Shown here in pieces: positions 11,401-17,475 of a DNA stretch of 17,475 nucleotides. Origin of the DNA: Clostridium sp. CAG:914 (lineage in GTDB: Bacteria; Bacillota_I; Bacilli_A; RF39; UBA660); contig FR902159.1 in the NCBI GenBank assembly GCA_000437895.1, forward strand, positions 20,487-37,961, written 5' to 3'. The notes under the pieces were generated by a model, which saw only the letters and a program-made list of their open reading frames with translations, ran no database searches and was not told the origin of the DNA. The translations under genes and the position numbers were made by a program. The stretch's first letter is position 1. Each line of letters opens with the position of its first letter.

Positions 11401-11750
11401 ATGTTATCCTATAAGCCACGTTCTGTACCTCTAAAAGAGGCGACAAACATTTATCTATGGTTTCCCATCCGTTTTATCATTCTTATTCTTCTAAAACAGT
11501 TCCCCTACCATTATTTGGGTTTCTCACTTGTGGGGTTTACCTCGTTTCATTCTATTCATTTCTAAATAGACTCGTCTCTGTGGCACTTTATATTCTTTTA
11601 ATCATAGAAATTCCTTAGACCAAAAGAATGCCGTTAGTCATAAGACTACCTTAGGTTATTTTTTCCCTAAGCACAAACACTACCATCATCACAGACAGTG
11701 TGAGCGTGGACTTTCCTCTATATCACTATAGCGTTTGTCCGGATAACAAT
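11401..11750 (-). ncRNA. rnpB: RNase P RNA, bacterial type B
   Basis: An ORF-free, relatively GC-rich stretch. Universal RNase P blocks on the minus strand: GAGGAAAGTCC (11718-11708), AAAGTGCCACAGAGACGAG (about 11589-11571), GGTAAACCCCACAAGTGAGAAACCCAAATAATGGTAGGGGAAC (11541-11499) and ACAGAACGTGGCTTAT (11426-11411). These are collinear with B. subtilis RNase P RNA. P1 pairs TGTTATCC (11748-11741) with GGATAACA (11409-11402). The ends are approximate, within about 5 nt. Confidence 0.9.
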
Positions 11751-12230: not shown

Positions 12231-13499
12231 TTACTTAGTATATTCAAATTCATAATCTAATATTTTAACAATATCACCTTCCTGAATACCCATCTTCTCA
12301 AGATCATCATCTACCCCCATATTTCTAAGTTTCATAGAAAATCTATTAATAGCCTCCTCAGTATTAAAATTCATCATCTTAAATATCCTTTCTACTTCCT
12401 TACCACTTATAACATAAGTATGACCCTCTTTAGTAATAGAATATGGCTTCTCTTTTTTAAACTTATATAACACATGACTTTCTTGTATATCATCTTCATA
12501 TAAAACATCATCTTCTGTCTCTTCAACCAAAACATTTAATTTATCAATTAACTCTTCTAAATTATCCTTATTAAGAGCAGATATAGAAATAACCTCTTCA
12601 CTAACCTTAGACTTAAATTCTCTCAAATTATCCAAACTACCATCAATATCCATCTTATTAGCAATAATAATTTCCTTCTTATTTAATAATTTCTCACTAA
12701 AACTAGCCAATTCTTTTCTAATAGCCATATAATCTTCATATGGATTTCTTCCCTCACTACCACTCATATCAATAACATGAGCAATTATTTTCGTTCTCTC
12801 AATATGTTTTAAAAATTTATGACCAAGACCAACGCCTAAAGAAGCACCTTCAATAAGCCCAGGCAAATCAGCAATAACAAAACTATTACCCTTGGTAGTA
12901 ACAACTCCCAAATTAGGAGATAAAGTTGTAAAATGATAACTTGCTATCTTAGGATTAGCATTAGTAATCATAGATAATATAGTACTCTTCCCAACACTAG
13001 GCATACCTACCAAACCAACATCAGCCATCATTCTAAGTTCAACTTTAATTTTTCTTACCTCACCAGGTTCACCACGTTCAGCAAAAGAAGGACAAGGATT
13101 ATTTTTCGTAGCCAAACTAACATTACCACGTCCACCACGTCCACCATAAGCAACGATTACTTCTTCACCCGGCTTAGTAAGATCAGCAACAACACTTCCC
13201 GTTTCCAAATCTTTTACCGTCGTACCAACAGGAACCTTAATAATCTTATCAACACTATCCTTACCCGTTTGATTCTTTCCCTCACCATTCTTACCAGCAT
13301 CACCAGTAATCTTCTTTAAATATCTCAAATCAATTAACGTTTTTAAACCCGTATCTGTCTTAAAAATAATATTAGCACCATGTCCACCAGACCCACCATT
13401 AGGCCCCCCCATTGGCACAAACTTCTCTCTCCTATATGCCATACAGCCATCTCCACCACGACCAGCACAAACTTCCATAATAACTTCATCCACGAACAT
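12231..13499 (-). CDS. obg: GTPase Obg/CgtA
   Basis: MFVDEVIMEVCAGRGGDGCMAYRREKFVPMGGPNGGSGGHGANIIF (glycine-rich Obg fold), G1 GMPSVGKST, G3 DLPGLIEGA, G4 NKMD, and a C-terminal OCT/TGS-like domain. Start set at the ATG at 13499. Confidence 0.95.
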   Translation of the reverse strand: MFVDEVIMEVCAGRGGDGCMAYRREKFVPMGGPNGGSGGHGANIIFKTDTGLKTLIDLRYLKKITGDAGKNGEGKNQTGKDSVDKIIKVPVGTTVKDLETGSVVADLTKPGEEVIVAYGGRGGRGNVSLATKNNPCPSFAERGEPGEVRKIKVELRMMADVGLVGMPSVGKSTILSMITNANPKIASYHFTTLSPNLGVVTTKGNSFVIADLPGLIEGASLGVGLGHKFLKHIERTKIIAHVIDMSGSEGRNPYEDYMAIRKELASFSEKLLNKKEIIIANKMDIDGSLDNLREFKSKVSEEVISISALNKDNLEELIDKLNVLVEETEDDVLYEDDIQESHVLYKFKKEKPYSITKEGHTYVISGKEVERIFKMMNFNTEEAINRFSMKLRNMGVDDDLEKMGIQEGDIVKILDYEFEYTK

Positions 13500-13539
13500 A
13501 AATATCACATCCCATAAGTATTATATAACATTTCACATC

Positions 13540-13633: not shown

Positions 13634-14671
13634 TTAAAACATAATATTTTCTATTTCTCTATATATCTTCTGATATATATGATAACTATTTGCATGCCTT
13701 ATATGTGAAGACCAACTATTAAAACTAAGCATCATCTTCTTCCTATCCAAACATCCCATATTATTATCTTTTTTCCATTTCTTAATTCTCTTTTTTATTT
13801 TTCTTTTACTACTATTTCTAATAAGTCTATACCCATCATATATCCTATAACCACAAAAATTAACTCCCATCTTTGAAGGATAATATCTACTTTTATTATT
13901 CAATTCTAATTTTAATTCCTTATTTAAAAACATCTTTATCTTTTCCATAACTATCCTACATTTTTCTTTCGTAGAAAGAAGAATTACCATATCATCCATA
14001 TATCTCACATAATACCTAACCTTAAGCACTTCCTTAACATATCTATCTAATATACTTAAATATATATTAGCAAAATATTGTGAAGTATAATTCCCTATCG
14101 GTATTCCCTTATCTATTTCATCATCATATATAAATATTTTAGTTAACCAAAGTATTTTTTTATCACTAACGAAACTATTCATTATCTTATATAATATATT
14201 TTTATCAATATTATAAAAATATTTCTTAATATCTAACTTAAGAACATAATATTTACCATATTTTCTTTTCATAATATTAATATATTTATCTACCATCAAA
14301 ACAGCATAATGAGTCCCCCTATTATCAATGCAAGCACAACAAGTATTAATTATTCTAGGTATAATATAAGGTTTTATAAATTCATAAATATACCATTGTT
14401 GTACTATTCTATCTCTATAAGGTAAACACTTAATAATTCTTTCTTTAGGTTCATATATTGTAAATACTTTATACTTACCAAGTCTATAACTACCATTCTT
14501 TAAACTATTCATAATTCCAACTATATTAGTCTCAATATCAACACTAAATTTAAGTAATTCATACCTATTAGTCTTATTTTTTTTAGCTCTATCATGTGAT
14601 CTAAGTAAAGATTCAAATGTTAACTTTTTATAAAAACAATTCTTTATACTTTTAGACATGACTTTATCCAT
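13634..14671 (-). CDS. DGR-type reverse transcriptase
   Basis: 345 aa, RT domain only, with no maturase, endonuclease or RNase H domain. Motifs: EPKERIIKCLPYRDRIVQQ (RT1/2), VLKLDIKKYFYNID (RT3), GIPIGNYTSQYFANIYL (the IGNxxSQ motif 4 characteristic of DGR RTs), YVRYMDDMVIL (YMDD box, as in Bordetella bRT), FCGYRI, and the C-terminal SWSSHIRHANSY. It overlaps avd by 28 nt. Confidence 0.85.
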   Translation of the reverse strand: MDKVMSKSIKNCFYKKLTFESLLRSHDRAKKNKTNRYELLKFSVDIETNIVGIMNSLKNGSYRLGKYKVFTIYEPKERIIKCLPYRDRIVQQWYIYEFIKPYIIPRIINTCCACIDNRGTHYAVLMVDKYINIMKRKYGKYYVLKLDIKKYFYNIDKNILYKIMNSFVSDKKILWLTKIFIYDDEIDKGIPIGNYTSQYFANIYLSILDRYVKEVLKVRYYVRYMDDMVILLSTKEKCRIVMEKIKMFLNKELKLELNNKSRYYPSKMGVNFCGYRIYDGYRLIRNSSKRKIKKRIKKWKKDNNMGCLDRKKMMLSFNSWSSHIRHANSYHIYQKIYREIENIMF

Positions 14672-15000
14672 CCACCAAGTAAATTCCCTATATTATATAT
14701 CTTCTTACTCCAAGCACTATAATTCTTACTATTAATATATTTCTTTTTATAAGATACCCTAATCATTACTTTTAACATCTTAAGTTCTACATCTATTTCA
14801 TTTAAAATAATTATTCTTTTATTCTTATTAAATTCCTTATTAGCAAGTATTATCTTTCTCATACCATTATAAGTAATTCTTTTTATCTCATCAACCATTG
14901 CTCCCTTTTCACTTTTCGGATACTTTAAAGTAATATTTTCCGTATAATATATCATCCCTAAATATTGTTTATATATCATTAATCCTTCTAACTCATTCAT
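14644..15000 (-). CDS. avd: Accessory variability determinant (Avd)-like four-helix-bundle protein
   Basis: 118 aa, very basic and predicted all-helical. KYPKSEKGAMVDEIKR, ELKMLKVMIRVSYKKKYIN and the C-terminal IGNLLGGWIKS fit the Avd / 'S23-IVS' four-helix-bundle pattern. It sits immediately upstream of the RT and overlaps it. Confidence 0.7.
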   Translation of the reverse strand: MNELEGLMIYKQYLGMIYYTENITLKYPKSEKGAMVDEIKRITYNGMRKIILANKEFNKNKRIIILNEIDVELKMLKVMIRVSYKKKYINSKNYSAWSKKIYNIGNLLGGWIKSCLKV

Positions 15001-15361
15001 TTAATAACTCCTTAAACTTATAAAGTATCTCTATCGCTTTTAACGGACTAATATTATCAATATCTATATCTTTAATCATCTTAATTATTTTATCATTTAT
15101 AACACCTCTATCATTATTATTTATTATCTCAACATCCAACTCTAAATTCTCAAATATTCCCATATATTTATCTATACTATTCTTAGGAAAACCACACTTT
15201 ACTATATTTTCATTTAATTTAGTAATTTTAAATGGTACATACTTACTTATCTTATAAGCATCATCATCGATAAATATATAAAACGTTCCACACTCAAATA
15301 AATAATATTTATTTTTATCAATATTCTTTTTTTCTAAATACTTCATATATAATTTACTCAC
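14993..15361 (-). CDS. MutS domain-I-like mini-protein (DGR accessory, MSL-type)
   Basis: 122 aa. YMKYLEKKNIDKNKYYLFECGTFYIFIDDDAYKISKYVPFKITKLNENIVKCGFPKNSIDKYMGIFENLELDVEI aligns by eye with the MutS N-terminal mismatch-binding domain ([45 protein letters not shown]...PMAGIPYHAVENYLAKLV). The C-terminal ISPLKAIEILYKFKELL resembles the MutS C-terminal TPxEAxxLLyeL helix. There is no ATPase domain. GTG start with GGAGG 6 nt upstream. The stop overlaps the avd ATG (ATGAATGA). Confidence 0.55.
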   Translation of the reverse strand: MSKLYMKYLEKKNIDKNKYYLFECGTFYIFIDDDAYKISKYVPFKITKLNENIVKCGFPKNSIDKYMGIFENLELDVEIINNNDRGVINDKIIKMIKDIDIDNISPLKAIEILYKFKELLNE

Positions 15362-15372
15362 ACTATGCCTCC

Positions 15373-15403
15373 AAAAAATAGCAGCACAAAAAAATTGTAC
15401 TGC
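15373..15403 (-). terminator. Terminator/attenuator-like hairpin immediately upstream of the msl-avd-RT ribosome-binding site
   Basis: Minus-strand sense: GCAGTAC (15403-15397), loop AATTTTTTT, GTGCTGC (15387-15381; 7 bp including one G-U pair), then TATTTTTT (15380-15373), which runs straight into GGAGG (15372-15368). Confidence 0.4.
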
Positions 15404-15523
15404 AAAAACTAATTTTGATAAACTCTCATTTTCACCATTTTACTACTCACGCGAATCTATCATTTTTTATGTGTATGTTCATCAACCATGAAAAGGAATA
15501 ATTTCTCTACGATAAAAACTAAT

Positions 15524-15543
15524 ATAATGTCCTTAAACATTAT
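15524..15543 (-). other. Small hairpin about 25 nt downstream of the target-gene stop and candidate VR
   Basis: ATAATGT / ACATTAT 7-bp inverted repeat with a 6-nt loop. On the minus strand it is followed by ATTAGTTTTTAT. It could be a weak terminator or a DGR-associated VR-flanking hairpin. Confidence 0.3.
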
Positions 15544-15567
15544 CCCCTAGCATAATATAATTATCTA

Positions 15568-17475
15568 TTATTGTAGTCTACCAACGACCAAAACCGAGCG
15601 GGCGGCACTATTGATGTTGGCACTACCGTTGTAGATGTCGAAGCTAAACGTGCCCGCACTAGAATCAGTGTTGTAGCCGCCGCCACGCAAGAACCACGGA
15701 TTACCAGCATAGACAAAGCTGGCACTATCATCATACCAATCACTTACTTCGGATAATCCATGTCCATAACATATCCCATCATTACACGCCGTTAGTGAAT
15801 TAGTTGCCGTATAATCATCATAATATTTACTATTAGGTTGGCTTGAGAAACCCGCATAATTACTTAATGAAGTTGCTCCCCACGTACTACCAGCTGGACT
15901 ATAATATCCCATAACATATTCCCAAGCACCACCAGACATATCATACACTCCAGTAATATTGCCTGTCGTACTAGATACTTTACTTATATCATGTGTACTA
16001 CTCTTCGTATTGGTATTATATTCTAGTAAATATCCATCCCAAGTATAAAAGCCATAATAAGTATTATATTGTGAGGTAGATGTTTGACTGGTATATACCG
16101 TATTAATTGCGGTACTTCCACCGACATTTCCGCCACTTCTTCCCGTATAATATCCAGATGAATTATTAATGTATATTTCTCGATTTGCTCCATATCTACT
16201 ATGAGATAAATATGCTACTGCTCCCCATTCACTATTCTTCATCATATGTGCATCGACATTACTAGTCATTCCGTATGTACTTGTCCCAAATCTTTGAGCA
16301 GTTGTAAATTCTGCTGATACTGTTTGGTTTCTAAGAGAACTGATATTGGGCATTATTAATGGAGCCGTAGCCGTTCCACCAGTTTCAAACTTTCCTACCC
16401 AAATACCATTTACTTCGGTATTACCAAATGTAAAGGCTGGATGAGTATAATAAGTATTAACTGCATCTCCCAAAGTTTTAGTTGTTGATTTATCTTCATA
16501 TATAATATCAATTTCTCTTGGACCTGTATAATTATATGAAGAAGAAATTTCCATCGTATATGTTATCTGATTATCTGAATTATTTTGATTATACATGTCA
16601 ATAAGTTGAGAAGTAGTCACTTCAATTCCAAGACTAGCATTTGAAAAAGTACCTGTTTGAAGGGCATTATTTACATCTGTCGTTGCTTCTTCCAATGTAT
16701 AACTAGTAAATCCAGCACTCTGGGCATAAGCATGCACCCAATTAATAAGTAATGTCTTATCACTATCACTTAATACATATATGTCAATAAGTTGAGAAGT
16801 AGACATTTCAATTCCAAGACTAGCATTTGAAAAAATACCTTTCTGAAGAGCATTATTTACATCTGTCGTTGCTTCTTCTAATGTATATGGACCTGAAACA
16901 AATCCTTGATTAATAGCATCTTGCACATAACTATACCACCAATTAATAAGTAATGTCTTATCACTATCACTTAATACATATACATAACATTCAGGATTTT
17001 CCTCATATGTTGGATTAGTTAATGTACTACATTTAACTTCTGGTATTCGGTATTTATACCTAGGTATCCATACATAATAAGCCAATATATCTTCTTCTGA
17101 TACTACAACTCCAGAAGTATTCTGATAAGTACTTCTAGAACTATCATTTACTAAAACCATATTAGCCCATTCCTTATTATTATAATTATACCAAGAAGCA
17201 TCATCTTCAGATACTGTTGAAGTTATTCCATTACTAGATATTACTACTGGTATCATTCCATCTTTAATATCTGGTTTACTTGCTGGAACATCATTCATAC
17301 AACTACCATTTAATGATAAACTAAATGACTGATTCATGGTTTCACTACTTGTCTCTTCAGCATCTAACCATATCCATAAATAATATGTCTCCGTAGCTGT
17401 CGCTGTATATTCTTTTGAAGTGAGTAAATTAACTTTATCACCAGTTATCTTTCCATTAAAATTACCAGAGCTTAC
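15568..17475 (-). CDS. DGR target (variable) protein with a C-terminal FGE-sulfatase / C-type-lectin-like domain; the 5' end runs off the right window edge
   Basis: The frame stays open for all 46 codons upstream of the track's ATG (17337) to the window end (VSSGNFNGKITGDKVNLL...), so the protein is longer than 635 aa. The C-terminal roughly 320 aa carry GIWVGKFE, MMKNSEWGAVAYL, GVYDMSGGAWEYV and WFLRGGGYN....ARSVLV. These correspond to the FGE-sulfatase-type fold used by many DGR variable proteins (DMxGNvWEW ... RGGSW ... GFR). Confidence 0.8.
   Translation of the reverse strand, partial: VSSGNFNGKITGDKVNLLTSKEYTATATETYYLWIWLDAEETSSETMNQSFSLSLNGSCMNDVPASKPDIKDGMIPVVISSNGITSTVSEDDASWYNYNNKEWANMVLVNDSSRSTYQNTSGVVVSEEDILAYYVWIPRYKYRIPEVKCSTLTNPTYEENPECYVYVLSDSDKTLLINWWYSYVQDAINQGFVSGPYTLEEATTDVNNALQKGIFSNASLGIEMSTSQLIDIYVLSDSDKTLLINWVHAYAQSAGFTSYTLEEATTDVNNALQTGTFSNASLGIEVTTSQLIDMYNQNNSDNQITYTMEISSSYNYTGPREIDIIYEDKSTTKTLGDAVNTYYTHPAFTFGNTEVNGIWVGKFETGGTATAPLIMPNISSLRNQTVSAEFTTAQRFGTSTYGMTSNVDAHMMKNSEWGAVAYLSHSRYGANREIYINNSSGYYTGRSGGNVGGSTAINTVYTSQTSTSQYNTYYGFYTWDGYLLEYNTNTKSSTHDISKVSSTTGNITGVYDMSGGAWEYVMGYYSPAGSTWGATSLSNYAGFSSQPNSKYYDDYTATNSLTACNDGICYGHGLSEVSDWYDDSASFVYAGNPWFLRGGGYNTDSSAGTFSFDIYNGSANINSAARSVLVVGRLQ
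15580..15744 (-). repeat. Candidate DGR variable repeat (VR) with a 3' GC-rich IMH-like block
   Basis: The last 55 sense codons before ...GRLQ* contain no codon ending in A. Sense-strand A is 30/165 and G+C is 85/165 by hand count, in a window that is otherwise about 30% G+C. The segment is rich in AAC/AAT/TAC/AGT/GAT-type codons (YNTDSS, FSFDIYNGSANINS). GCCGCCCGCTCGG (15606-15594) lies at the 3' end. No partner TR was seen in the window, so the repeat status is inferred rather than observed. Confidence 0.6.
16595..16981 (-). repeat. In-frame tandem duplication (186 bp + 201 bp) inside the target gene
   Basis: 16595-16780 and 16781-16981 share near-identical flanks (ATGTCAATAAGTTGAGAAGTAG... 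and ...ATTAATAAGTAATGTCTTATCACTATCACTTAATACATAT) around a divergent centre. The encoded units are YVLSDSDKTLLINW...TLEEATTDVNNALQ.G.FSNASLGIE..TSQLID. Confidence 0.9.

What the first reader, a model, noticed from the sequence alone, without database searches (positions are those of the whole stretch)
14993..15361. A 122-aa protein built from MutS mismatch-binding domain I and a MutS C-terminal helix is coupled to avd and the RT
The ORF aligns by eye with MutS residues of about 10-100, through the GDFYELF mismatch-recognition strand (here GTFYIFI).

- The intercalating Phe is kept (F27), but the catalytically important Glu of the Phe-x-Glu motif is Ile (I29).
- The protein ends with ISPLKAIEILYKFKELL, which resembles the TPxEAxxLLyeL helix near the MutS C-terminus.
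- It has no connector, clamp or ATPase domains.

My recollection is that large DGR surveys list a small MutS-like (MSL) accessory ORF in a minority of cassettes, with no defined function. I cannot verify that here.

One hypothesis is that it binds the mismatched cDNA:VR heteroduplex, or competes with host MutS, so that adenine-derived mismatches escape repair during retrohoming.
Basis: partly seen in the sequence, partly recalled or inferred. Interest (0 to 1): 0.7.

Follow-up and report, generated by a model that had tools for sequence, protein, structure and literature searches.

The report
MutS-like (MSL) accessory protein of a DGR
The 122-residue ORF is a real "mini-MutS": the mismatch-binding domain of the repair protein MutS joined to MutS's C-terminal self-association hairpin. 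It belongs to the already named but functionally untested MSL accessory family of diversity-generating retroelements (DGRs).

Summary
ORF 14993-15361 (-) matches Pfam MutS_I above the curated cut-off, and its predicted fold superposes on MutS domain I. Its last ~27 residues match the helix-loop-helix of the E. coli MutS C-terminal tetramerisation domain.

- **Motif:** across 120 family sequences the wedge Phe (F27) is invariant. The Glu of Phe-x-Glu is never present (Ile/Leu/Val in 115).
- **Operon:** the gene overlaps avd by 8 nt, and avd overlaps a DGR-type reverse transcriptase (RT; IGNYTSQ, YMDD).
- **Context:** 69 of 75 assessable species-representative loci have both avd and a DGR RT nearby, in three gene arrangements.
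- **Selection:** dN/dS is 0.09-0.39.

This is the MSL (MutS-like) accessory gene named by Wu et al. 2018, so it is a new member of a known kind. The C-terminal MutS homology was not mentioned in the MSL passages of the four DGR papers I read.

Function is untested. The best inference is an Avd/RT-associated mismatch or heteroduplex binder that shields the cDNA:VR intermediate from host mismatch repair.

This particular cassette has no template repeat: the variable repeat (VR) and template repeat (TR) are collapsed into one hybrid copy, unlike its closest relatives.

The parts
14993..15361 (-). msl ORF, 122 aa, GTG start. A MutS-like DGR accessory protein.
   Evidence: dN/dS 0.09-0.39. Calculated pI 6.35.
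15116..15361 (-). MutS domain I module (residues 1-82). Predicted elements: H3-14, E19-24, E27-31, H32-39, E54-59, H60-72, E77-80.
   Evidence: Pfam MutS_I. Profile hit to E. coli MutS 14-99. Foldseek to MutS domain I.
15275..15283 (-). Codons F27-Y28-I29, the counterpart of MutS Phe36-Tyr37-Glu38. The Phe wedge is kept and the Glu is replaced by Ile.
   Evidence: Alignments. Family counts. Coordinates.
15005..15112 (-). C-terminal helix-loop-helix (H84-98, acidic loop DIDNISP, H106-119). Homologous to the conserved part of the MutS C-terminal dimerisation/tetramerisation domain (E. coli ~826-852).
   Evidence: MutS C-terminal domain properties from PMC1636413.
15368..15372 (-). Ribosome-binding site GGAGG, 6 nt upstream of the GTG start.
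   Evidence: Sequence.
14644..15000 (-). avd (118 aa). Its start overlaps the msl stop by 8 nt.
   Evidence: bAvd 9.7e-21. DivGenRetAVD 2.6e-20. phrog_3206.
13634..14671 (-). DGR reverse transcriptase (345 aa) with IGNYTSQ and YMDD motifs. Overlaps avd by 28 nt.
   Evidence: RVT_1 6.8e-18. phrog_1423 5.5e-104. Motifs.
15568..17337 (-). Target (variable) protein gene, 589 aa. The C-terminus has a weak FGE-sulfatase / C-type-lectin-like match.
   Evidence: E=1.8e-4, below the cut-off. Syntenic target genes in relatives.
15580..15723 (-). Single hybrid VR/TR copy. The 5' side is VR-like: it sits inside the target gene and is substituted at TR adenine positions. The 3' end and flank are TR-like.
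15362..15567 (-). Conserved spacer that lies between TR and msl in relatives. It contains a terminator-like hairpin at 15403-15381.
   Evidence: Near-identical in L007 and L010. Hairpin. The fold z-score of -1.85 is not significant.

Best explanation
**Identity (shown).** The ORF encodes an MSL (MutS-like) accessory protein of a diversity-generating retroelement. It is a two-module mini-MutS. Module one is MutS domain I, with the DNA-wedging Phe invariant and the repair-authorising Glu always replaced by a hydrophobic residue. Module two, after a short linker, is the helix-loop-helix that in MutS mediates dimer stabilisation and tetramerisation. The gene is translationally coupled to avd and lies in one operon with the DGR RT.

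**Mechanism (inferred).** MSL self-associates through the helix-loop-helix, or docks onto a partner through it, and travels with the Avd-RT complex. Its domain I binds the densely mismatched heteroduplex, or the kinked or partly single-stranded DNA, formed when adenine-mutagenised cDNA pairs with VR. MSL has no ATPase, clamp or MutL-recruiting parts and no Glu38. It would therefore occupy the lesion without licensing repair, and so shield the intermediate from host MutS. Diversified sequence would then be fixed rather than reverted.

**Confidence.** About 0.95 for identity and architecture, about 0.35-0.4 for the anti-repair shielding mechanism.
For: **Identity**
- Pfam, NCBIfam, PDB-profile and Foldseek matches to MutS domain I.
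- C-terminal profile matches to the MutS C-terminal domain.
- In E. coli the MutS C-terminal domain has a conserved helix-loop-helix at 823-853. Expressed alone it forms tetramers, and D835 in its acidic loop is needed for tetramerisation (PMC1636413).

**A real, selected gene family**
- 365 clusters at 50% identity reach E<1e-10. Of the 150 best hits listed, most are 110-150 aa; most of the rest are shorter partial sequences.
- G25, F27, D34, K55 and F58 are invariant.
- dN/dS is 0.09-0.39.

**DGR linkage**
- 69 of 75 assessable species-representative loci have avd and an RT in the locus, in three different arrangements.
- 37 of the 84 loci scanned have A-biased TR/VR pairs.
- 14 of 15 viral loci have an RT within about 3 kb.

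**Physical link to the RT machinery**
- The 8-nt start/stop overlap with avd recurs in the window's close relatives and several species-representative loci, and short overlaps (3 to 22 nt) are common among the 50 same-strand msl-avd-RT loci.
- One natural MSL-Avd fusion exists (P0208/L083).
- Wu et al. report three DGR RTs with C-terminal MutS_I extensions.

**Relevance of mismatch repair**
- Deleting mutS raised Bacteroides DGR mutagenesis 5-10 fold in an all-or-nothing manner.
- DGR engineering in E. coli uses delta-mutS strains or dominant-negative MutL.
Against: - No experiment on any MSL appeared in the searchable literature.
- An isolated domain I lacks the clamp domains that give MutS most of its DNA affinity (established MutS structural knowledge). 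MSL is not basic either: pI 6.35 here, family mean 7.6.
- MutS is not required for BPP-1 phage retrohoming (cited).
- Most DGRs work without MSL: it is present in 16 of 372.
- In Bacteroides the three Msl-bearing DGRs were the low-activity ones. That paralleled low transcription of the DGR genes, so it is not a clean test.
- The C-terminal similarity is short (about 24-27 residues) with a best E-value of only 2e-3.
- Five of 75 loci have msl with no avd or RT within 6 kb.
Confidence: 0.55

Rival explanations
1. **Host-MutS poison or hitch-hiker.** The conserved helix-loop-helix pairs with the C-terminal domain of the host's own MutS instead of with itself. This would cap MutS dimers, block tetramers, or tether MSL to MutS. 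The result would be local dominant-negative inhibition or redirection of mismatch repair at the VR.
For: - The helix-loop-helix matches the MutS tetramerisation domain in register.
- That domain alone oligomerises. Losing tetramers lowers repair 5-10 fold in vivo, similar in size to the mutS effect on a DGR.
- Dominant-negative repair proteins do raise DGR output in engineered systems.
Against: - No host MutS sequence could be compared, so there is no evidence that MSL matches its host's C-terminal domain.
- The positions matching the E. coli interface residues are only moderately conserved. Position 102 (= D835) is N42/D38/E14. Position 106 (= P839) is P in 47 of 120. Position 107 (= R840) is variable.
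- This idea gives no role to the invariant Phe of domain I.
- Global repair inhibition would be costly to the host.
Confidence: 0.17
2. **Repair-independent cofactor of the RT-Avd particle.** Domain I serves as a generic binder of single-stranded, kinked or hybrid nucleic acid. It would help hold the TR-RNA/cDNA or the target DNA during priming or cDNA integration. The helix-loop-helix would dock on the Avd helical bundle.
For: - Translational coupling to avd, and one Avd fusion in which the second C-terminal helix is lost, as expected if its job were to bind Avd.
- MutS_I extensions occur on some DGR RTs.
- MutS-I domains occur as DNA-binding modules next to ArdC-N in polyvalent proteins of mobile elements, where a role in binding single-stranded DNA was proposed.
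- The mismatch-discriminating Glu is lost.
Against: - The strictly invariant Phe wedge points to base stacking of the MutS type rather than generic binding.
- The BPP-1 DGR system comprises RT, Avd, TR and VR with no MSL, and 356 of 372 DGRs lack MSL.
- The fusion is a single case.
Confidence: 0.22
3. **Decaying remnant or chance ORF.** The ORF would be a fragment of a mutS gene or a spurious ORF with no function.
For: - This particular cassette has lost its TR.
- A few orphan msl genes exist.
Against: - The family has hundreds of full-length members of constant size and invariant residues.
- dN/dS is well below 1.
- The ribosome-binding site and the overlap with avd are conserved.
- The identical protein occurs in other samples with an intact DGR.
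Confidence: 0.02

Closest known systems
MSL (MutS-like) accessory proteins of DGRs, 'architecture D' (Wu et al. 2018, PMC5758913). Called Msl in Bacteroides DGRs (Macadangdang et al. 2024 preprint).
   Same: - Small size: 122 aa against the published range of 112-283.
- Near-neutral pI: 6.35 against 7.2 +/- 1.7.
- MutS homology.
- Located in a DGR cassette together with avd and without HRDC.
- No known function.
   Different: Nothing essential differs, so this is a member.

Added here:
- The C-terminal MutS tetramerisation-type helix-loop-helix.
- The family-wide 'Phe kept, Glu never' rule.
- A family at least 365 clusters deep.

This copy's cassette lacks a separate TR.
Bacterial MutS (MutS1), e.g. 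E. coli MutS (PDB 1e3m, 7ou2; C-terminal domain 2ok2, 3zlj)
   Same: - Domain I fold and core motifs: GxFY, DDA, GxP.
- The Phe wedge.
- The C-terminal helix-loop-helix with an acidic loop.
- The same N-to-C order of the two modules.
   Different: - Lacks domains II-V, about 700 residues: no connector, core, clamp, ATPase or MutL-interaction surface.
- Glu38 is replaced by Ile/Leu/Val.
- Four residues are deleted in the 58-61 loop.
- No beta-clamp motif.

It cannot be a repair enzyme.
[quoted passage not shown] 2017, PMC5512222)
   Same: - MutS domain I used outside MutS by mobile elements of Firmicutes and Bacteroidetes.
- One such protein (P0222) scores E=1.3e-25 against the MSL profile.
   Different: - There the domain is a repeat inside giant multi-domain proteins, usually with ArdC-N.
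- No C-terminal helix-loop-helix is reported there.
- Not linked to DGRs.
HRDC accessory proteins of DGRs
   Same: A small nucleic-acid-binding domain borrowed from a DNA-repair or recombination protein and placed in a DGR cassette. According to Wu et al. it never co-occurs with MSL.
   Different: - Unrelated fold.
- Derived from RecQ/RNase D rather than MutS.
Smr (small MutS-related) domain proteins
   Same: Only the name and the small size.
   Different: Smr is a nuclease domain from the MutS2 C-terminus. No Smr match was found at E<=10.
Dominant-negative mismatch-repair proteins used in recombineering (e.g. MutL E32K)
   Same: A possible functional analogy: transient suppression of mismatch repair so that mismatched single-stranded-DNA-derived edits persist.
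   Different: - Engineered full-length proteins.
- No sequence relation to MSL.
- An anti-repair action of MSL is not demonstrated.

Membership tests
DGR MSL accessory family (Wu et al. 2018) | Small protein (112-283 aa) with roughly neutral pI | tested here: met
   122 aa; pI 6.35; definition.
DGR MSL accessory family (Wu et al. 2018) | Detectable homology to MutS | tested here: met
   Pfam MutS_I at 36.6 bits, above the 20.6 cut-off. PDB profile E=9e-8. Foldseek.
DGR MSL accessory family (Wu et al. 2018) | Encoded in a DGR cassette next to avd and a DGR RT, with no HRDC gene | tested here: met
   msl-avd-RT overlap one another. The RT has IGNYTSQ. None of the four cassette proteins matches HRDC.
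Complete, active DGR cassette | A separate TR and VR differing mainly at TR adenines | tested here: not met
   No TR was found in the 17.5-kb window. One hybrid VR/TR copy is present, whereas relatives with the identical MSL have both repeats 320 nt apart.
MutS (MutS1) mismatch-repair ATPase | Domain I with a Phe-x-Glu mismatch-recognition motif | tested here: not met
   The domain I fold and the Phe are present, but the Glu is Ile here and never Glu in 120 relatives.
MutS (MutS1) mismatch-repair ATPase | Connector, core/lever, clamp and ABC-ATPase domains (II-V) | tested here: not met
   The protein ends at residue 122. Only MutS_I was found by Pfam.
MutS (MutS1) mismatch-repair ATPase | C-terminal helix-loop-helix dimerisation/tetramerisation domain | tested here: met
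   C-terminal-only profile: 2ok2 E=0.0023, 3zlj_C 0.014. TIGR01070 positions 811-839 of 840. Predicted helices H84-98 and H106-119. Oligomerisation itself was not testable here.
Smr (small MutS-related) proteins | Smr nuclease domain | tested here: not met
   No Smr hit at E<=10.
Polyvalent-protein MutS-I modules (Iyer et al. 2017) | MutS-I embedded in a large multi-domain protein, usually with ArdC-N | tested here: not met
   This is a stand-alone 122-aa protein. Contrast P0222, which has DUF285 + 4 MutS_I + ArdC-N.

The most novel reading that the evidence does not exclude
MSL arose from MutS by deletion of domains II-V, keeping only the mismatch wedge and the oligomerisation hairpin. It works as a retroelement-encoded local anti-mismatch-repair factor. 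It co-assembles with host MutS through the shared C-terminal helix-loop-helix, or homo-oligomerises on the mismatched cDNA:VR heteroduplex. Adenine-derived mismatches would thereby escape the all-or-nothing reversion by MutS.
Probability: 0.22. Interest if true: 0.8.

Novelty: new member of a known kind. Interest (0 to 1): 0.48.

Why it matters
How mutagenised cDNA replaces VR is an open step in DGR biology, and so is how the mismatched intermediate survives host repair. Recent work shows that MutS cuts DGR output 5-10 fold.

MSL is the only DGR accessory protein visibly derived from the repair machinery, and its role has never been tested. Three results from this analysis turn a vague "MutS-like" label into specific mutants and partners to test:
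- It keeps two defined MutS modules: the Phe wedge and the oligomerisation hairpin.
- It never keeps the repair-authorising Glu.
- It is tied to Avd across rearranged cassettes.

A small natural anti-repair or heteroduplex-protecting factor could also improve DGR- and retron-based genome-diversification tools.

Tried and rejected
- **TR search in the window.** Repeat finding, an adenine-tolerant ungapped scan on both strands and word-7 blastn found no TR. The explanation came only from relatives.
- **Single-sequence phmmer against the PDB.** It was only marginal (E=0.07). A family profile was needed.
- **Whole-protein profile for the C-terminus.** It gave only 2.7 bits there, so a C-terminus-only profile was built.
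- **PF27441.** This family is pre-computed on several homologues' C-termini, but no PF27441 match came back when those homologues were scanned against the local Pfam copy, so it may not be in that copy. I could not name it.
- **Weak Imm39 hits on the C-terminus.** At E about 0.01-0.03 and below the cut-off, I treated these as noise.
- **Rfam.** It found nothing in the DGR region. The TR-to-msl spacer fold is not significantly stable (z = -1.85).
- **My own Avd profile.** It detected no Avd in the 15 viral loci. Avd is poorly conserved, so its absence there is not established.
- **My A-bias TR/VR detector.** It missed known pairs such as L006 and L007, so 37 loci is a lower bound.
- **Not attempted.** Multimer modelling of MSL-MSL, MSL-MutS C-terminal domain or MSL-Avd, because the structure tool takes single chains from a restricted set. 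Comparison with the host's own MutS, because no host MutS sequence was reachable.
Full report
**1. What is in the sequence**

On the minus strand the window carries, in order:
- a 589-aa gene (15568-17337);
- a 206-nt spacer;
- the 122-aa ORF of the finding (14993-15361);
- a 118-aa ORF (14644-15000);
- a 345-aa ORF (13634-14671);
- obg (12231-13508).

The 118-aa protein is Avd: Pfam bAvd 9.7e-21, NCBIfam DivGenRetAVD 2.6e-20, phrog_3206 "Avd protein of DGR" 1.5e-24. The 345-aa protein is a reverse transcriptase (RT): RVT_1 6.8e-18, phrog_1423 5.5e-104. It carries IGNYTSQ, which fits the [I/L/V]GxxxSQ motif that I recall as typical of DGR RTs, and YMDD.

The finding's ORF starts at a GTG six bases after a GGAGG. 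Its stop overlaps the avd start by 8 nt (ATGAATGA), and avd overlaps the RT by 28 nt. The three genes therefore form a translationally coupled operon.

**2. Domain I**

- Pfam MutS_I matches residues 7-85 at E=5.8e-9, 36.6 bits against a gathering score of 20.6.
- NCBIfam's MutS equivalog models are the only hits.
- A single-sequence search of the PDB is marginal (E=0.07).
- A 15-sequence family profile hits E. coli MutS 14-99 at E=9e-8. Only MutS, MSH6 and MSH3 appear down to E=0.01.
- AlphaFold2 with that alignment gives mean pLDDT 89.
- Foldseek against the PDB lists only MutS and MutS-homologue chains among its 50 listed hits. Most have rmsd 1.4-2.7 A, up to 87 aligned columns, and a TM-score of about 0.5-0.6 normalised to the 122-residue query.

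The alignment puts G25-T-F27-Y-I29 on E. coli G34-D-F36-Y-E38. It also aligns D34-A35 with D43-A44 and G57-F-P59 with G70-I-P72, and shows a four-residue deletion in the MutS 58-61 loop.

**3. The Phe-x-Glu motif across the family**

A full HMMER scan of 1.84 billion representative proteins found 365 clusters at E<1e-10. Of the 150 best hits listed, most are 110-150 aa and most are matched end to end; the rest are mainly shorter partial sequences.

In an alignment of the window protein with 119 of them:
- G25, F27, D34, K55 and F58 are invariant.
- Position 29 is I86 L23 V6 N2 Y2 S1, never Glu, Asp or Gln.

From established MutS biochemistry (my own knowledge: Schofield 2001; Lebbink 2006), Phe36 stacks on the mismatched base. 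Glu38 is needed for discrimination and for licensing repair, not for binding. The pattern is therefore what one expects of a protein selected to keep the wedge but not the signalling.

dN/dS between close and more distant copies is 0.09-0.39.

**4. The C-terminal helix**

- phmmer and the family profile both placed residues 93-119/121 on the last 27-28 residues of E. coli MutS, but with insignificant scores.
- I extracted the C-termini of 90 family members and searched the PDB with that 37-position profile alone. The best three hits are the MBP-MutS C-terminal domain fusion 2ok2 (E=0.0023), the 53-residue C-terminal chain of 3zlj (0.014) and full-length MutS 7ou2 (0.018).
- Six of the eight hits are MutS, all in one register: MSL I96...L119 on MutS L829...L852.
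- Independently, four of ten C-terminal peptides scanned against 18,950 NCBIfam models returned a single family, mutS1. They aligned to positions 805/811-839 of 840, with E = 0.004-0.07.
- The model predicts two helices (84-98 and 106-119) joined by the acidic loop DIDNISP.

Manelyte et al. 2006 (PMC1636413) describe the E. coli C-terminal domain as follows:
- a poorly conserved part (801-822, containing the beta-clamp motif);
- a conserved helix-loop-helix (823-853);
- the isolated domain is a tetramer;
- D835 in the acidic loop is required for tetramers but not for dimers.

MSL D102 aligns with D835 and P106 with P839 (P839E is the "dimer mutant" of entry 6i5f). More precisely, it is the conserved half of the MutS dimerisation/tetramerisation domain. 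MSL has MutS's first ~90 and last ~30 residues in the same order, which suggests an origin by internal deletion. That origin is an inference.

**5. Link to DGRs**

*Close relatives.* Look-ups of near and distant homologues show target-TR-msl-avd-RT at the same chromosomal site next to obg. This holds in several independent gut metagenome assemblies.

*Species-representative genomes.* A scan gave 80 loci, almost all uncultured gut Bacilli and Clostridia. I called ORFs and searched them with profiles built from the window's Avd and RT.
- 75 loci have enough flanking sequence. Of these, 69 contain both avd and RT, one has RT only, and five have neither.
- Three arrangements occur: msl-avd-RT on one strand (50 loci); msl-RT with avd opposite (7); and msl followed by RT and avd both on the opposite strand (12).
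- Persistence of the association through rearrangement argues for a functional link.
- Adenine-biased TR/VR pairs were found in 37 of the 84 loci scanned, which is a lower bound.

*Viral contigs.* Only 15 loci were found in 2.9 million viral contigs, 14 of them with an RT within about 3 kb.

*Fusion.* One species has an in-frame MSL-Avd fusion (P0208/L083; Pfam MutS_I 5e-11 plus bAvd 6e-21). In it the second C-terminal helix of MSL is replaced by a low-complexity linker.

**6. What is already known**

- Wu et al. 2018 defined MSL ("MutS-like") as a new DGR accessory gene. It occurs in 16 of 372 DGRs, is 112-283 aa with pI 7.2 +/- 1.7, always occurs with avd and never with HRDC, and defines "architecture D". 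They also noted three RTs with C-terminal MutS_I extensions.
- Later reviews and surveys repeat the name without assigning a function.
- Macadangdang et al. [quoted passage not shown] They show that deleting host mutS raises VR mutagenesis 5-10 fold with an unchanged pattern ("all-or-nothing" repair). They did not test Msl. The Msl-bearing elements were the poorly transcribed, low-activity ones.
- DGR reconstitutions in E. coli use delta-mutS or dominant-negative MutL.
- Iyer et al. [quoted passage not shown] One such protein surfaced in my search: P0222, with DUF285 + 4 MutS_I + ArdC-N.

The MSL passages I read in four DGR papers do not mention the C-terminal MutS homology or the "Phe always, Glu never" rule. 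I did not search the literature for these points directly, and much of the literature is not in the library.

**7. Mechanism**

*Shown.* The architecture, its conservation, purifying selection, coupling to Avd and RT, and DGR association.

*Inferred.* MSL oligomerises or docks through its helix-loop-helix, rides with Avd-RT, and uses the Phe wedge to bind the mismatched cDNA:VR heteroduplex. It lacks everything MutS needs to signal: Glu38, ATPase, clamp and the MutL interface. It would therefore block repair rather than start it. I give this about 0.35-0.4.

*Rivals.*
- The hairpin binds host MutS itself, a dominant-negative or hitch-hiker model (about 0.17).
- MSL is a repair-independent nucleic-acid-binding cofactor whose hairpin docks on Avd (about 0.22).
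- It is a functionless remnant (about 0.02, contradicted by conservation).

*Arguments against the favoured model.*
- An isolated domain I should bind DNA weakly.
- MSL is not basic.
- BPP-1 retrohoming does not need MutS to be removed.
- Most DGRs lack MSL.
- A few msl genes are orphans (L022, L023, L044, L053) or have avd but no RT (L001).

**8. A caveat specific to this window**

No TR exists in the 17.5 kb. In relatives, including L091, which encodes the identical MSL, VR and TR lie 320 nt apart. Between them sit a GC hairpin and a terminator-like hairpin, and the TR is followed by a ~220-nt spacer before msl.

In the window the target ORF runs through a VR-like sequence substituted at TR adenine positions. 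It then continues straight into the TR's own 3' end and spacer, ending ...VLVVGRLQ* instead of ...VVGS*. VR and TR have thus been merged into one copy, with loss of about 320 nt. This happened either by recombination within their identical 3' ends or by assembly collapse. As assembled, this cassette cannot diversify. This does not affect the identity of the MSL gene.

**9. Verdict**

The object is a member of the known MSL family, so it is not new in kind.

The value added is a sharper description: two MutS modules, the motif rule, family size, and 92% DGR linkage across three arrangements. It also gives a concrete, testable mechanism at a time when mismatch repair has just been shown to restrict DGRs. 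Interest is moderate (0.48).

Noticed in passing
window 15580-15723 (-), with the flank to 15362: VR and TR are merged into a single hybrid copy. The 5' side is VR-like and lies inside the target gene. The 3' end and downstream spacer are those of the TR in relatives. About 320 nt are missing, including the post-VR GC hairpin, a terminator-like hairpin and the 5' part of the TR. The cause is either VR-TR recombination or assembly collapse. Contigs with the identical MSL (L091) have both repeats.
   Followed up: yes
L083 5998-6711 (protein P0208, 237 aa): A natural in-frame MSL-Avd fusion (Pfam MutS_I + bAvd). The second C-terminal helix of MSL is replaced by a low-complexity linker. This is a single case among 80 species.
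   Followed up: partly
protein P0222 (2323 aa, from the representative search): A giant polyvalent-type protein with DUF285 repeats, 4-5 MutS_I-like repeats and an ArdC-N domain. It scores 1.3e-25 against the MSL profile. It fits the class described by Iyer et al. 2017.
   Followed up: partly
L001 6001-6747; L011, L022, L023, L044, L053: msl genes without a full DGR within about 6 kb. L001 has msl-avd followed directly by pgi. L044 lies between ylxM/ffh and addA. L011 has target-msl and then a YhcG nuclease gene. These may be decayed cassettes or trans-acting copies. The MAG contig carrying L044 also carries a complete cassette (L045).
   Followed up: partly
L004 2600-4800 and L011 6362-7090: A YhcG/DUF1016 PD-(D/E)XK nuclease gene is inserted into two msl-type DGR cassettes. 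In L004 it is flanked by three copies of a ~440-nt module that each begin with a TR-like segment (repeat families D1-D6).
   Followed up: no
window 15381-15403 (-): A terminator-like hairpin (GCAGTACAATTTTTTTGTGCTGC followed by a T-run) sits about 20 nt upstream of the msl start and is conserved in relatives. It could end the TR transcript or attenuate read-through into msl-avd-RT. One such site was found against 0.3 expected.
   Followed up: no
window 16591-16982 (-): The target gene contains tandem ~190-200-nt direct repeats at 85-93% identity. They encode a duplicated segment (YVLSDSDKTLLINW...TLEEATTDVNNALQ...). Target length varies among close relatives: 589, 689 and 704 aa.
   Followed up: no
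window 11407-11746 (-): Bacterial RNase P RNA class B (288 bits). Window G+C is 28.8%. The msl homologue loci come mostly from uncultured gut Bacilli and Clostridia.
   Followed up: no
L103-L112, L114 (viral contigs): The RTs near msl in most viral contigs are split into two or three adjacent ORFs under genetic code 11. My Avd profile finds no Avd there. Possible causes are stop-codon recoding, frameshifts or divergent Avd.
   Followed up: no
homologues P0012, P0017, P0044 and others: A recent Pfam family, PF27441, is pre-computed on the C-terminal part of several MSL homologues. No PF27441 match came back when I scanned those homologues against the local Pfam copy, so I could not establish its name or whether it already captures the C-terminal helix-loop-helix.
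   Followed up: no
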